Shown here in pieces: positions 1 to 21,000 of a stretch of 64,000 nt of DNA; positions within the stretch are counted from its first letter, which is position 1; the number at the start of each line of letters is the position of its first letter. Origin of the DNA: Octopus sinensis (lineage: Eukaryota). The DNA is taken from the NCBI RefSeq assembly GCF_006345805.1, contig NC_043007.1, positions 3,658,001 through 3,722,000 on the forward strand. Direction: 5' to 3'. Made by a program: the position numbers.

Positions 1-3000
1 GAAGTGGTCCATTAATCCGACACGCCCCGCAGTACAATGTCTACAAGAACAACCAGCAGATTCAATAAAAAGAACATCTATCACTCGTAAAGGATTTTTC
101 TTTGAATTCTTGGGAACTTTGAAAAGACGCTAATCCACAAACTGACAACACTGACATAAACTGTTCTGTAAGTTTTATTTTTATTTAAAAAAAAAAATTA
201 TAATTTTTAATTTTTTTTTTTTTAAGGTGGGGAAATAACGGCAAAGCAAGAACATTATTCATTCATCTTTGGGAAAGACTCAAAACAAAATTTACAAAAT
301 TCAAAAATAAACGTTAATTATTTTTTTTCTTTCTTCTCCAGAGATATTTCAGAATACAATATGAAACTAGGATAAAGGGGGGGAAAAAAAGGAAGAAAAA
401 AATAGTATGAGAACGATTAAGATAGAAAGTAAAAATAAATCTGGAAAGGATAATCAAGGTTTAATTATCCTTCAGTTTTGGTTGAATGTTGCAGTTAAAA
501 AAATATTTTTAATTTTTGAAAAGGAAGAAAAGGATAAAGCCAAAGTGACAATTGTAACTTGAAAAATAACCTGGAAAATTAAAATAAAAGTTGGAGATTC
601 AATGTTGTACACAAGCTCTGAAAGAGAATGTTAATCTAAAAATTAAACTGATAGATTTGTTTCTGACATTGTTAAATGGTGACATTAAACCAATATTAAA
701 AAAGTTGAGACTGTTTAAGGCACCAACATCCAAATTCTACCCAGCAGCAATAGCTTCATGTACCATAGAATTTCTGATGGAGCGAAACACCTACCTTAAT
801 AATAGTACGTGTCATTCAAGAGAATTTTTTTAACTCGTGGTACAAATGGAGGTTGTTTTTAAGAGGGGGGGAAAAAAGGTGAGGAAGGGATTATATTTAA
901 TTGAAAAATCCGTATTCTATAGACTTTGCCACGCGAAGGGATGGGATGTCAGGATTTTAAGTGTATAAATTTACTACAATTAATAAAATGTTTCACAGAT
1001 TAGTTTTCAAAATATAAGCCTCAGGAGAAACAGCGTTTCGACATGATTGTTATAGATTTTATACCAACTGACTTCATTGAAATTTTATAATGAACCACTT
1101 TGAAGTAGTACAAGCATACCACTTAGATGGCAAGATAAAGAAACACAGCTACATCATACAGTTAAGCTTGCTAGAATCTCAATAAAGCTTTCTTTAACAC
1201 CATTCAAACGTAAAATCTAAGCTTCCTTGCTACTTCAGTTGAAATTTGGTTTGAACTGGATATGAGGAACTGGTATTAGGAATACATCAAAGATTTTACA
1301 AGAAGCAAATGTGTTGGAAAGACCACCTATCGTATCAAAATAAGGAATTTTAAAACCAGTTTTGCTTCATCTAACTAGGAAAACAGTCTTTTATTAATTA
1401 AGTCTTAGCTGAACTAATAAATGTTGGTTGATTGTCCTTAACTCAGATTAGGAAAATTAGACAAACTTTAAAAACAACTTTTTAATCAAATAAGAACCTT
1501 TATTACAGATTTTCTTCAACTACATGCTTGTTAATACTCAAAAAAAGTCAATGAAGAATTCTGTACACGTGCACACAGGAACAAGAAAATATATTTGGAA
1601 CAGTTTTAAAAACACAACCTATTTGGAACATCTTAACTCGGTTCCTGCAACGCTTATTCTTGCTGATAATTAAAAAGCAATTTAAGGCTTTTTTTTTTTT
1701 TGAGAATGTCTTAATTATATTAGAAAGGAAAAAAAAAAAAGACTTAATATGCGGAATTGTAATTCTGGCATAAGTTTATTCCATTAAAAAAAAATTAGGA
1801 CCAGTCAGATATAAAAATCAGACAAAATTAAAAGAATTAAAAACCTGTCATATCACTGAAGAAGCAGCCAGTCTTTATACAATAAAGAACAGTGAATCCA
1901 TTCATCAGTTGATATTTTATTACGGTTAATAATATTAGTTCAATAAAGGTGAAATAACTAAGTCTTAAGAAAAAAATCTGCCAAATTATATTCACCATAT
2001 CATTAAAAAGTGACAGCTGAAGATGAAAGACTTTCTTTATGATGTAGATAAAGCTGTCTGACAAAAAGGTAACACCATTCCAGAGAGCTACCTAGAGAAA
2101 AAGTTTTAATCCATTCATCCAAATACATTTATGACGGAAAGCAGGTATGTGGTTTAAAATAATGATTTTGGTCTCTGTATCTAGTAAGTACTGCAGTTGA
2201 CAGATACCTGAAGACAGCTACAGATGAGCAATAAGGCGGCAGAAAATATTCTAACTTAGAAAAATAATACTTTAATGTTGGAAGATACCAGCACACAATT
2301 TAGCTACAATGGTCAGGTTTACTATCTCTCCGATACTTCAAGGAGAGATTAAGTTGTTTGTTTTTTTCATTCAGATTTACTTTCGTTTTGTTACGATAAG
2401 AAAAAAATACTGGCATAATAATAATAATAATAATAATACAAACAGTTTAACTATAACCAATGGCAAATGAAAAAAAAAAATGTTGAAATAAAATGTTATG
2501 CAAAACAGGAATGAATACCAGCATAAGAGTAAGAAAAAGGGTTCATGAATGCATATTGAAAAGGCTGTTGAGCATGATGCCAATAGCAGCATGAACAATT
2601 TCGTTTTATGTATCTACAGACATACAAACCAGTCAACCATGCACACACATACCTATCTGTAGTCCACGTGTCCATACAAACATTTTTTATTTTTTTAAAT
2701 TCATTTTAAATATAATTTCATATATATATATTCTTTTTTATAATTTTTATCATCTCGTTCAAACTGACTTGCAAAAAAAATCAGTGAATCAGATTGATTA
2801 GATTTAGATTAGATATCTGCAAAAAGTGGACTAAGTTTGTGAACATTGGAGAAAGCAGCAAGTTTTTTTCTTTTTTTTTGTAACAAAAAGCATGTTTTGA
2901 AAAAAAAAAGTTTCCTTTTCTTTGTTGTAAGTGGGATACATAAGTGGGGGGGGAGAGGAAAAAGTTGGAAAGAATGAGAAAAATTGATGCGAGTCCAAAT

Positions 3001-18000: not shown

Positions 18001-21000
18001 TTCAACATAAATTGAAATATCAATACAAGCAAGTTCGTCCTTCCGTAAAAACATGACCAATTGATATTCTGACTGGAAAGTGTACGAACGGCTGAGGAAC
18101 ATGAACAAATATTGGAAACAGAAGCGACAAAAAGAAAAAAAAAAAAACAAAAAACATTGTCTGCAAACCAAATTGTCAAAATTCAAAAGAAATATGGCTG
18201 TCTCCAATATCAAAATGATATATTTCTGAGGGATAAAAAAAATTGATTTGCATGCACACCATTGCTGGTGGCACTGTTAAGACAATTGCATTAATGAAGG
18301 ACTGAAACTTACCTGTTTTCCATCTACTTCTATATCTGCCACATAGTTCTCAAAAACTGTGGGGACGTACACTTCAGGAAATTGGTCTTTACTAAACACT
18401 ATGAGAAGGCATGTTTTACCACAAGCACCATCACCAACAATAACCAATTTTTTCCTAATGGCAGCCATGGGTGCTTCAAAATCTGAAAAGAATAGATTAA
18501 AATATTTTTAAAAACTAGAAATTTAAGAATGGTAATGTGTCAGTAAATTGGGATGGTGGTGGTAATTGGGGAGGAGGGGGTTATAATATTTAAAAAAACA
18601 TTAAAGACAAAGCCAGTAGATATGTGATGTGCAGAGTGACAGAATGGTAAATGGAAGTGCCAAGTGATCCAAGTGGGAAGAATGTGCAGAAGAGGAATAA
18701 CAAGGAAGACAAAGGAAATGGTGAAAGCAGATCTGAGGCTGAGCCTTTACACAGGAGCTGATAAAGAGCCACAGAAATGGTAAGATGAAGACCCATCCAA
18801 CCCACCATAAAACGAACGGGAACTGATGAAATGGTAGCCTTTAGTATAAAACAATGAAGTCATTTTTTAGAATTCAATATCACTGAAGATTAGACCCCGT
18901 TTAAATCTGGAATCATCGGCCTCAACCTAGATTTACCACGAAAAGAAAAGTGAATTTGGGGGCAAACGGATATTGAACCAGCATCGTTTATAGTAAAGGG
19001 TTTCTTTTCCTTGTTCTCTATAGTATCGGGTTTGTTTTTTGTTAAATCTAACTAAAACTGATTCTTCTTCAGTAACAGACTTAACAGTTTTTAAATCATC
19101 AGAAAGTCTGACATCTTACAGAAAGGTCAACCTGAAACGAGTGACCTCAACGATGAATCATGAGCTGACAGTCATAGAGAGCAAGAACTGAATGCATTAG
19201 GAATTGCCGATATCACAAGTTTCAAATGTCAAATTCTAACAAATCTGAAATAAAAGCAAATCCTAATTTTTCATAATTTTTATTTTTTGTAGGTTATTTT
19301 ATGGTTATAAATAGGAACAAATTCTGTGGAGGGAACGAAAATAAAACGAAAGCAAACAATGGATTGTTTGCCATTATACGAAATATATTACAAAGGAACT
19401 CAATGTTAAATAACTGAGGGATTATAACAGGGAATTAAACCTTATTACAGCCTAAACACAGGTGAGAAGGTTCAAAGAGTTTATGAAGGATTGCTGATAC
19501 AAGATTGCATTCTCAAAAATGCACAACACAATTATGTAATTCGTTAATTTCGCTTTTAATAAAGCATCTTGAATAAGTATTTAAGAGTTTGATTAGGACA
19601 GTGGTGCGAGTGTGCAGGCAACGAAAATCCTGTACTCAAGGGACAGGAATGATTTCACAAATTTGTGTCAATTCGTGTGAAAAAATTCTCCTGACAAAAC
19701 AATAGTTTTGAATGACAAACGGGGGGGAAATAATGATTTGATCAACAAGTACAATCAACAAAGATGACCACCGTACATACATTATTAATCGTGTGTGTCT
19801 CGTAGAAGGAAATCATTCAAGCAATGAATATGCAGCAAAGAGGATAATTTATTAACCGTCAATATATATTATTATTACACTGTGGAAAGAACTCTACTAA
19901 TCAAGGGAGTTGCCATGATATTCAAAGCAATATGGATGGTGCCAAGCTCTCTCTTTAAAAAGACAGAGACTACACAGCACCACATAAGCTTCTTTCATGG
20001 GGGAAAATGGACATTTTATACACACATTCTATCATATCATCATACAGCTGTCAGTACAGATGGCGACGATGGAAAAACGGATGGCAAAACCAGTAATGGG
20101 AAAGAGAGTGCTCGTCCATTGCTGAAGCAATGAGGAAGATACTAGGCTCCATCAGCTACAATTGGATGCTGTACATCCAGATCTTCCTGAAATTACTGTA
20201 GTCTTTAAGAAATTAAAAAAATAAAAAGGAGGAAATGACACATTCGATTATATATATATCTAGAGTCTCTGCTACTAAGAAGGGACAGTCATGGCTAGAA
20301 TGTCATAGATCATAAGTCTGCTTAATCAGATGACCCATGGCTAAAACAACTCCATTATAATTAAAGCTGACAGTAAAAGAATTTCCTCCTGAAAAAAAGA
20401 CAAAAAAAAAAACGGGCAAATTTTTTTACGTTGAATGCGCGCACACGAATGTAATTAATGGTTTTAATTAAAAACAGTGGAAAAGTAAAAGGATTTTTTT
20501 TCTAAGGAGAGAAAGAGAGAAGAAGCTGGGGGGGAAAGAGTAAGCAACAGCCATAAAAGCTAGGTTATACGAGCAAGAAGCGACCAGTTTGGGTGGGGCA
20601 CTTTGTTAAACAGCGACGACCAACCGAGGAACCAGTTTGTAGGGCAATTTGTATTAACCAACAGTTTGGTCGGCCATTCACTCATTAGTCACACTTATTA
20701 GTAGAAGAGTAATAATATCTTAACTACATTATTAATGAAAAAAAAAACCTTAATTACAACCACATGCCAAACGAATGGTGGGGGTGGGGTGGAGGAGAAG
20801 AGGAAGACTCGACGTGTGGGCTGACCTGCTGGAAATAGCAGTCAAACCTTCTCGCAAATCCAAAGCTAACAACAACTAAAAAGAAGTCAGGCAGTTATAG
20901 ACTAAATACACAGAAAGAGGGATGCTCATGGTTGGAATGTCTTTCGTAAGGAAACACTCCATTGGGGCTCACCTGGAGACAACCAGATATCAAAAATACC

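What the first reader, a model, noticed from the sequence alone, without database searches (positions are those of the whole stretch)
3000..18468. One Rho gene, two GTPases: a shared N-terminal exon splices to either of two ancient duplicated terminal exons
Seen: I found only one exon for residues 1-52, but two intact 423-nt exons for residues 53-192. Both are phase 0 and begin at V53, each with its own acceptor, stop, UTR and poly(A) signal. I saw no second start exon or promoter between them (3424-8503). By manual count, 38 of the first 73 codons differ silently with no amino-acid change, so the duplication is old and both copies are under purifying selection. Known: vertebrates diversify Rho through separate genes (RhoA/B/C), and CDC42 and KRAS swap only short C-terminal exons. 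Inference: about 73% of the protein is exchanged by alternative last-exon choice, giving intragenic paralogues that share the P-loop and switch I. I do not know of a description of this for RhoA.
Basis: partly seen in the sequence, partly recalled or inferred. Interest (0 to 1): 0.9.

Follow-up and report, generated by a model that had tools for sequence, protein, structure and literature searches.

The report
Octopus Rho gene, two terminal exons
An octopus RhoA-type GTPase gene has one exon for the first 52 residues and two old, intact copies of the exon for the remaining 140, so it probably makes two Rho proteins by choosing its last exon.

Summary
On the minus strand there is one exon for Rho residues 1-52 (18468..18313). 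There are two 140-codon terminal exons, A (8926..8504) and B (3422..3000), both phase 0 with AG acceptors. Of 140 codons, 57 are identical, 67 differ silently and 16 change the residue, all within residues 126-192. Synonymous sites are saturated (pS 0.85) while pN is 0.092, so both copies are old and constrained. The 64 kb hold only one exon for residues 1-52 and one real P-loop.

Exon A is identical to the C-terminus of a RefSeq model, Octopus bimaculoides RHO isoform X3. Exon B is 95% identical to gastropod and bivalve Rho. A further coding exon lies 33.6 kb upstream, at 52085..52049.

The best reading is one gene with two homologous alternative last exons. No transcript evidence for the join to B could be obtained. 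Six of the eight paper searches aimed at this arrangement and none found it described. An oyster paper reports tandem CgRho-1/CgRho-2, which may be the same arrangement. Verdict: a new variant of a known kind, of moderate interest.

The parts
52414..52476 (-). Possible core promoter of the Rho gene: CCAAT at 52476..52472 and TATATAAAA at 52422..52414, about 330 nt upstream of the first ATG.
   Evidence: Read directly. These are motifs only; function was not tested.
52049..52085 (-). Coding end of the first exon: ATG plus 12 codons (MSRFLSCLRPTD), then one G, then the donor G|gtaagt (phase 1). Joined to 18482 it gives a 17-residue extension in frame with the Rho start.
   Evidence: tblastn with the first 17 residues of P0048 (O. 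bimaculoides isoform X3): 10 of 12 identical, E = 3.6e-04. Donor and phase were read.
18313..18482 (-). Shared second exon. Acceptor ttttcag before 18482; ATG at 18468; residues 1-52 (P-loop, switch I); donor CAG|gtaagt after 18313.
   Evidence: Pfam Ras PF00071, E = 3.1e-13. It is the only tblastn hit for residues 1-52 and the only real P-loop in the 64 kb.
8504..8926 (-). Terminal coding exon A (proximal): residues 53-192 plus stop, tail CILF. The last 40 intron bases are 75% pyrimidine.
   Evidence: 141 of 141 residues identical to residues 69-209 of XP_014768513.1. Pfam Ras, E = 1.6e-34.
3000..3422 (-). Terminal coding exon B (distal): residues 53-192 plus stop, tail CTML. The last 40 intron bases are 57.5% pyrimidine, and the acceptor TAG is an in-frame stop.
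   Evidence: 95% identical to Biomphalaria and Mytilus Rho. Pfam Ras, E = 3.7e-35.
3423..8503 (-). 3' UTR of exon A plus the spacer that must be transcribed through to reach exon B. It contains no Rho-like coding sequence and holds a recent tandem duplication of about 988 bp (5531-6517 and 6505-7492).

Best explanation
The window carries most of one RhoA/Rho1-type GTPase gene of an octopus closely related to, but not identical with, O. bimaculoides. The gene runs on the minus strand from about 52.4 kb to below 3 kb.

After a first exon at about 52 kb and a shared exon for residues 1-52, the transcript can end in either of two homologous terminal exons. Each encodes residues 53-192 and has its own stop codon.

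Splicing the single donor at 18313 to the proximal acceptor (8926), then cleaving downstream of A, gives isoform A. Skipping that acceptor and its 3'-end site and reading 5.5 kb further to the distal acceptor (3422) gives isoform B. This is alternative last-exon choice, coupled to polyadenylation.

The two proteins share the P-loop, switch I and switch II. They differ at 16 residues:
- 3 in the Rho insert region (126, 128, 132);
- 8 on the following helices and strands (141-176);
- 5 in the polybasic tail and CAAX box (186-192; CILF against CTML).

The likely functional difference is therefore membrane targeting, chaperone binding and effector fine-tuning, not nucleotide handling.

Shown: the anatomy, the age, the selection and the A-type model in a sister species. 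Inferred: the join to B, the regulation and the functional difference.
For: One start exon, two terminal exons:
- tblastn finds residues 1-52 once in 64 kb (E = 2.4e-32, next best E = 2.0) and residues 53-192 twice.
- There is one real P-loop in six frames.
- The window has no assembly gaps.

Both terminal exons are translated:
- pN is 0.092 against pS 0.848, with no stop or indel in 140 codons.
- Four-fold sites are near random, 15 of 43 identical against 28% expected. This rules out recent gene conversion as the cause of the protein similarity.

The join to A:
- XP_014768513.1 (O. bimaculoides RHO isoform X3) is upstream exon + shared exon + exon A. It matches 141 of 141 residues over A and the codon before it.
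- Its N-terminal 12 residues map to 52085..52050 with the correct donor and phase.

Exon B is the conservative copy:
- It is 95% identical to Biomphalaria pfeifferi Rho and to Mytilus galloprovincialis RHO isoforms X2 and X4.
- Its end branch in the tree is 0.056 against 0.22 for A.
- A canonical Rho C-terminus kept this well needs a P-loop half, and only one is available.

The same intron position at codon 52/53 appears in 6 of the 10 unnamed entries I fetched. Their reading frames run through a CAG acceptor into V53.

Homologous 3'-terminal exons with separate poly(A) sites are a recognised class (PMC3228551, passages read).
Against: - No RNA-seq, cDNA or long-read data were available, so the 18313-to-3422 junction is unseen.
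- No database protein is 100% identical to exon B; the best is 96%. An octopus B-type isoform would be about 92% identical to the A-type and so would be hidden by the database's 90% clustering. The cluster listing that would have shown it was unavailable.
- The A-type model is a computational RefSeq prediction, not a cloned cDNA.
- The proximal acceptor A has the stronger pyrimidine tract (75% against 57.5%). On its own this predicts that A would usually win, so use of B needs regulation that I cannot show.
- The interval between A and B contains a 99.5% identical tandem duplication. Assemblies can be unreliable at such repeats.
Confidence: 0.75

Rival explanations
1. These are two separate tandem Rho genes. 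The downstream copy (B) has its own exon for residues 1-52, which is missing from this assembly or lies outside the window.
For: An oyster study describes CgRho-1 and CgRho-2 as 'repeated in tandem', with Ks 1.534 and Ka/Ks 0.15 (PMC4669188, passages read). The A-B interval holds a 99.5% identical tandem repeat of about 988 bp, a place where assemblies can collapse.
Against: - No second start exon or P-loop exists anywhere in the 64 kb.
- The window has no N.
- An own first exon for B would have to lie in the 5081 nt between the copies, which were searched.
- In the oyster paper the CgRho-2 model is itself incomplete. It has 182 residues, an altered G2 loop and gene structure 'incomplete information'. 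That fits a copy lacking its own first exon as well as it fits a full gene.
Confidence: 0.1
2. One of the two terminal exons is an unexpressed relic of a partial duplication, so only one Rho protein is made.
For: There is no transcript evidence for B here. The oyster CgRho-2 was 'barely expressed' (PMC4669188).
Against: Synonymous sites are saturated, yet 124 of 140 residues are identical, with no stop, frameshift or lost splice site in either copy. A neutral relic of this age would have decayed. B is 95% identical to Rho of other mollusc classes, and A is used in a RefSeq model.
Confidence: 0.05
3. Both exons are used, but the choice is made only at 3'-end processing or by trans-splicing of separate transcripts, not by regulated splice-site choice.
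For: Terminal homologous exons are often selected at poly(A) sites rather than at splicing (PMC3228551).
Against: Nothing in the sequence separates these mechanisms. Candidate poly(A) hexamers occur at background frequency. No independent promoter or start exon for a second transcript was found.
Confidence: 0.1

Closest known systems
CDC42 alternative last exons in vertebrates (ubiquitous and brain isoforms)
   Same: This is a Rho-family GTPase whose two homologous, mutually exclusive terminal coding exons change the polybasic/CAAX tail. Abascal et al. list the pair as conserved in jawed vertebrates (PMC4494069, passage read).
   Different: The CDC42 exons are 91 nt long by the coordinates in that paper. 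Here each exon is 423 nt and carries switch II, the insert helix and the whole C-terminal half, and 11 of the 16 differences lie outside the tail. The gene here is a RhoA/Rho1 orthologue, not CDC42.
KRAS4A/KRAS4B alternative fourth exons (recalled; only the abstract of PMC9882654 was seen)
   Same: A small GTPase that diversifies its membrane-targeting region by choosing between duplicated exons.
   Different: In KRAS the swap covers only the C-terminal part of the G-domain and the hypervariable region. It belongs to the Ras subfamily and is found in vertebrates.
Vertebrate RhoA/RhoB/RhoC paralogues (separate genes; recalled)
   Same: These are near-identical Rho proteins. In the two PDB alignments printed the RhoA and RhoC chains, like A and B, differ from the queries only in the C-terminal third. 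Exon A scores marginally best against a RhoC chain (263.1 against 262.1 bits) and exon B against RhoA (268.8 bits). That margin is too small to carry meaning.
   Different: The vertebrate forms are whole-gene duplicates with their own promoters. Here the N-terminal 52 residues and the promoter are physically shared.
Crassostrea gigas CgRho-1/CgRho-2 (Li et al. 2015, PMC4669188)
   Same: This is a mollusc Rho pair adjacent in the genome. It has Ks 1.534 and Ka/Ks 0.15, much like pS 0.85 and pN 0.092 here. The second copy has an incomplete N-terminal model.
   Different: The paper treats the pair as tandem gene duplicates specific to oyster and does not consider a shared first coding exon. I could not see the sequences, because the accession table is in a supplement that is closed. 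Orthology with A/B is therefore untested.
Homologous 3'-terminal exons with multiple poly(A) sites, e.g. human capping protein beta (PMC3228551)
   Same: The formal class is the same: terminal exons of similar length, phase and sequence, used alternatively.
   Different: The protein family differs. Here the swapped exon makes up 140 of the 192 codons.

Membership tests
Rho subfamily small GTPase (RhoA/Rho1 orthologue) | Ras-family G-domain | tested here: met
   Pfam PF00071, each above its cut-off: shared exon E = 3.1e-13, exon A E = 1.6e-34, exon B E = 3.7e-35. Profile positions 1-47 and 48-160 of 162 fit end to end.
Rho subfamily small GTPase (RhoA/Rho1 orthologue) | P-loop GxxxxGK[ST] | tested here: met
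   One real match, at 18435..18412 in the shared exon.
Rho subfamily small GTPase (RhoA/Rho1 orthologue) | Rho insert region present and closest relatives are RhoA/B/C | tested here: met
   Both exons align to RhoA and RhoC chains from residue 53 (52 in the shorter RhoA construct 5m6x_B). The insert region aligns without a gap, and the only gap is a single residue in the C-terminal tail (E about 1e-78 to 1e-80). Rac1 chains score about 100 bits lower. The residue range of the insert helix is recalled, not computed.
Rho subfamily small GTPase (RhoA/Rho1 orthologue) | C-terminal polybasic stretch and CAAX box | tested here: met
   Read: A ends in a polybasic run plus CILF, and B in a polybasic run plus CTML. 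That a final L or F directs geranylgeranylation is recalled.
Alternative homologous last exons (tandem exon duplication) | Two homologous exons of equal length and phase, each with an acceptor and a stop, downstream of a single donor | tested here: met
Alternative homologous last exons (tandem exon duplication) | Mature transcripts that contain exactly one of the two exons, with both kinds observed | not testable with these tools
   No RNA data were available. Only a predicted A-type model from a sister species was seen. The cluster listing was unavailable.
Alternative homologous last exons (tandem exon duplication) | A functional cleavage/polyadenylation site after each exon | tested here: inconclusive
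   Hexamers are present after both exons, but at background frequency: 18 in 5081 nt and 14 in 2999 nt.
Complete tandem gene duplicates | Each copy has its own exon for residues 1-52 | tested here: not met
   One tblastn hit and one real P-loop in 64 kb.

The most novel reading that the evidence does not exclude
The A/B exon pair may predate the split of cephalopods, bivalves and gastropods. Molluscs would then have diversified their single Rho gene for hundreds of millions of years through an intragenic pair of terminal exons. That pair would be a functional counterpart of the vertebrate RhoA/RhoC gene pair. The oyster 'tandem gene' CgRho-2 and the unseen Mytilus isoforms X1 and X3 would be the same arrangement misread.

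Hints only:
- Synonymous sites are saturated.
- At several of the 16 sites (128, 132, 152, 154), A keeps states seen in echinoderm or priapulid Rho, while B shares the gastropod and bivalve states (listing).
- Oyster Ks is 1.534.
- An unnamed entry equals the Mytilus exon except for a different tail that is one residue longer. This fits the isoform lengths of 212 and 192.

Against:
- A sister relationship of A and B is not rejected (AU p = 0.26).
- No A-type relative above 82% identity in the variable half was found outside Octopus.
Probability: 0.25. Interest if true: 0.65.

Novelty: new variant of a known kind. Interest (0 to 1): 0.45.

Why it matters
Vertebrates obtained RhoA, RhoB and RhoC by duplicating whole genes. 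Here the same kind of diversity, in the insert helix and the membrane-targeting tail, appears to come from one promoter and one P-loop exon through choice of the last exon.

This is a clean natural example of alternative splicing and gene duplication acting as interchangeable routes. It affects a central cytoskeletal switch in an animal known for complex neural and muscular tissues.

It also has a practical consequence. Gene models and expression counts that treat the locus as one Rho protein, or as two tandem genes as in oyster, will misassign reads and isoforms.

Tried and rejected
- Cluster listing. The listing of cluster members for six hits was not carried out because the database was switched off. 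I could not see whether an octopus B-type isoform sits inside the 90% clusters P0048, P0005 or P0007.
- Third protein search. I restricted it to the variable half of exon A. Only P0048 matched at 100%; the next best were 76-82%. No A-type orthologue outside Octopus was found, which may reflect the clustering and the sampling.
- Tree. I built it from 25 rows: A, B, 13 named references and 10 unnamed entries, chosen from the 214 stored hits. B falls among the mollusc sequences, but only 3 of 22 inner branches are starred and A is unplaced. The AU test does not reject A+B as a clade (p = 0.264). The age of the duplication relative to mollusc classes stays open.
- Spurious top hits. P0001 (Glossina, 239 aa) and P0006 (Pangasius, 226 aa) outscored true matches because a segment is repeated inside each. 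I take these for faulty records. They are not exon pairs.
- Weak GTPase-like tblastn hit at 39368-39534 (+), E = 0.06-0.09. It contains stop codons and is chance.
- Bacterial-type promoter and terminator scan of 3400-8550: 24 sites against 22.5 expected. It is uninformative and not designed for eukaryotes.
- Rfam and tRNA scans of the window: nothing.
- Pfam on the long ORFs at 30.3 kb and 59 kb: no match reached the curated cut-off. These ORFs are minisatellites.
- Literature. Eight searches. Six aimed at the arrangement and one at the RefSeq accession. None found a description of a shared-exon Rho gene.
- Supplements. The supplements of PMC4669188, which hold the accessions and the Ka/Ks table, were closed.
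- Joined models. Everything was done exon by exon.

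
Full report
WHAT IS THERE. All features are on the minus strand.

An exon with an acceptor just before 18482 carries the Rho start codon at 18468. It encodes residues 1-52 (P-loop and switch I) and ends in a phase-0 donor, CAG|gtaagt, after 18313.

Two open frames of 140 codons plus stop follow. 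Exon A is at 8926..8504, behind tttcag. Exon B is at 3422..3000, behind ccttag. In B the TAG of the acceptor is in frame, so the coding sequence can only begin by splicing exactly at V53.

Pfam places the shared exon on positions 1-47 of the Ras profile and both A and B on positions 48 or 49 to 160. The halves therefore fit end to end.

- Of 140 codons, 57 are identical, 67 differ silently and 16 change the residue.
- In the first 73 codons, 38 differ silently and none changes a residue.
- Nucleotide identity is 74.9%.
- pS is 0.848 and pN is 0.092 (Fisher p = 3e-44). For codons 53-125, pN is 0.017; for codons 126-192 it is 0.173.
- At 43 shared four-fold sites, 15 are identical, against 28% expected from composition. 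Silent sites are essentially randomised.
- The introns and 3' flanks of the two copies share nothing beyond low-complexity runs.

The duplication is therefore ancient. Recent gene conversion can be excluded, and both copies have been kept by selection on the protein.

ONLY ONE N-TERMINAL EXON.
- tblastn with residues 1-52 finds a single hit in all 64 kb (E = 2.4e-32). The next best has E = 2.0.
- A P-loop pattern in six frames gives three matches, of which only the known exon is real.
- The window has no N.
- The interval between A and B (5081 nt) holds a recent tandem duplication of about 988 bp at 99.5% identity, 5531-6517 and 6505-7492. It holds nothing Rho-like.

WHOSE GENE IT IS. I searched exon by exon and never joined the shared exon to A or B.
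[quoted passage not shown] The match is 141 of 141 residues, counting the codon before the exon.
- That model starts with 12 residues that map, 10 of 12 identical, to 52085..52050 in the window. There follow a single G and the donor G|gtaagt. Phase 1 completes a GAT codon with the first two bases of the shared exon.
- The window therefore comes from a close relative of O. bimaculoides.
- The gene has a first exon 33.6 kb upstream of the shared exon, preceded by CCAAT and TATA-like motifs.
- The gene spans roughly 52.4 kb to below 3 kb.

EXON B IS THE CONSERVATIVE COPY.
- B is 95% identical to Rho of Biomphalaria pfeifferi and to Mytilus galloprovincialis RHO isoforms X2 and X4, and 96% to an unnamed entry. 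A is only 86-89% identical to these.
- In a tree of 25 rows, B has an end branch of 0.056 and A one of 0.22. B falls among the mollusc sequences and A is unplaced.
- A sister relationship of A and B is not rejected (AU p = 0.264).
- A search limited to the variable half of A found only the O. bimaculoides protein at 100%. Everything else was 82% or less.
- Six of the ten unnamed entries I fetched read through a CAG acceptor straight into V53. The intron position is therefore shared by other genomes.

HOW IT MOST LIKELY WORKS. This is one transcription unit with two homologous alternative last exons. The single donor at 18313 pairs with acceptor A, 9386 nt downstream, and the RNA is cleaved after A. 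Alternatively, A and its 3'-end site are skipped and the donor pairs with acceptor B, 14,890 nt downstream.

The join to A rests on a predicted RefSeq model in a sister species. The join to B rests on inference. A canonical Rho C-terminal half that has stayed 95% identical to other mollusc classes while its silent sites randomised must be translated. It cannot work without residues 1-52, and only one such exon exists.

Acceptor A has the stronger pyrimidine tract, 30 of 40 bases against 23 of 40. Use of B probably needs repression of A or a kinetic effect. This is speculation.

Candidate poly(A) hexamers follow both stops, but at the background rate for this A+T-rich DNA. They are not evidence.

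WHAT DIFFERS BETWEEN THE TWO PROTEINS. Only 16 of 192 residues differ:
- 126, 128 and 132, in the Rho insert region;
- 141, 142, 145, 148, 152, 154, 165 and 176;
- 186, 188, 190, 191 and 192, in the polybasic tail and CAAX box (CILF against CTML).

The assignment of these positions to structural elements is recalled from human RhoA and was not computed here. Residues 53-125, which include switch II, are identical.

The swap covers 73% of the codons, but its effect resembles the differences among vertebrate RhoA, RhoB and RhoC. Exon A scores best against a RhoC chain by one bit and exon B against RhoA. I regard this as a coincidence.

WHAT IS KNOWN.
- Homologous terminal exons used with separate poly(A) sites are a recognised class (PMC3228551, passages).
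- The CDC42 pair of 91-nt homologous exons is conserved in jawed vertebrates (PMC4494069, passage).
- KRAS4A/4B is recalled; I saw only an abstract.
- I ran eight full-text searches. Six aimed at the arrangement, one at the RefSeq protein name with 'isoform', and one at the accession. None found a paper describing a Rho gene with a shared N-terminal exon and two terminal exons.
- The nearest paper is Li et al. 2015 (PMC4669188, passages). [quoted passage not shown] CgRho-2 has 182 residues, an altered G2 loop and 'incomplete information' on gene structure, and is barely expressed. This could be the same arrangement read as two genes. Its accession table is a supplement I could not open.
- Public models already number several isoforms: X3 in Octopus, and X2 and X4 in Mytilus.
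- An unnamed entry equals the Mytilus exon in 128 of 128 residues before a different tail that is one residue longer. That would fit isoform lengths of 213, 212, 193 and 192. This is inference only.

LIMITS.
- No eukaryotic genome or RNA collection was available.
- The cluster listing was switched off.
- The protein database clusters at 90%, while A-type and B-type full-length proteins would be about 92% identical. An octopus B-type isoform could therefore be present and invisible.

VERDICT. This is a new variant of a known kind, alternative homologous last exons in a small GTPase. It is probably already implicit in RefSeq models, and I found no paper that describes it. Interest is moderate.

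Noticed in passing
window 52049-52085 (-), with P0048, P0008, P0067, P0155, P0071, P0023: An upstream exon can add a 17-residue, cysteine-containing extension in front of the Rho start. N-terminally extended Rho isoforms are also annotated in Mytilus (20 residues), Tribolium (15), Anneissia (7), Oratosquilla and Dufourea. All except the Anneissia extension contain at least one Cys. Whether these extensions are translated or lipid-modified is unknown.
   Followed up: partly
window 5531-6517 and 6505-7492: A tandem duplication of about 988 bp at 99.5% identity lies between the two terminal exons. It occurs nowhere else in the window. It is either a recent duplication or an assembly artefact.
   Followed up: partly
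window 4680-4739 and 9409-9468: A 60-nt element ending in GATGATGATGAT occurs at 88% identity upstream of both terminal exons. The two copies are out of register with the exon spacing (4729 against 5504 nt). They look like independent insertions of a dispersed repeat, not part of the duplication.
   Followed up: no
window 30400-30798, 32585-32942, 40949-41303, 59015-59624: Minisatellites of 30, 87, 31 and 30/60 nt units. The first three lie inside the 33.6-kb first intron. They account for the long open frames at 30.3 kb and 59 kb, which have no Pfam match above the curated cut-off.
   Followed up: yes
P0012 against P0007 (Mytilus galloprovincialis RHO isoform X4): An unnamed 141-residue entry is identical to the Mytilus exon-equivalent up to the polybasic run. 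It then has a different tail, one residue longer (135 of 141 identical). This would fit a second terminal exon in Mytilus giving isoforms X1 and X3.
   Followed up: partly
P0001 (Glossina, 239 aa) and P0006 (Pangasius, 226 aa): Two database Rho proteins contain an internally repeated segment, of about 47 and 34 residues. They look like faulty records and inflate bit scores above those of true matches.
   Followed up: yes
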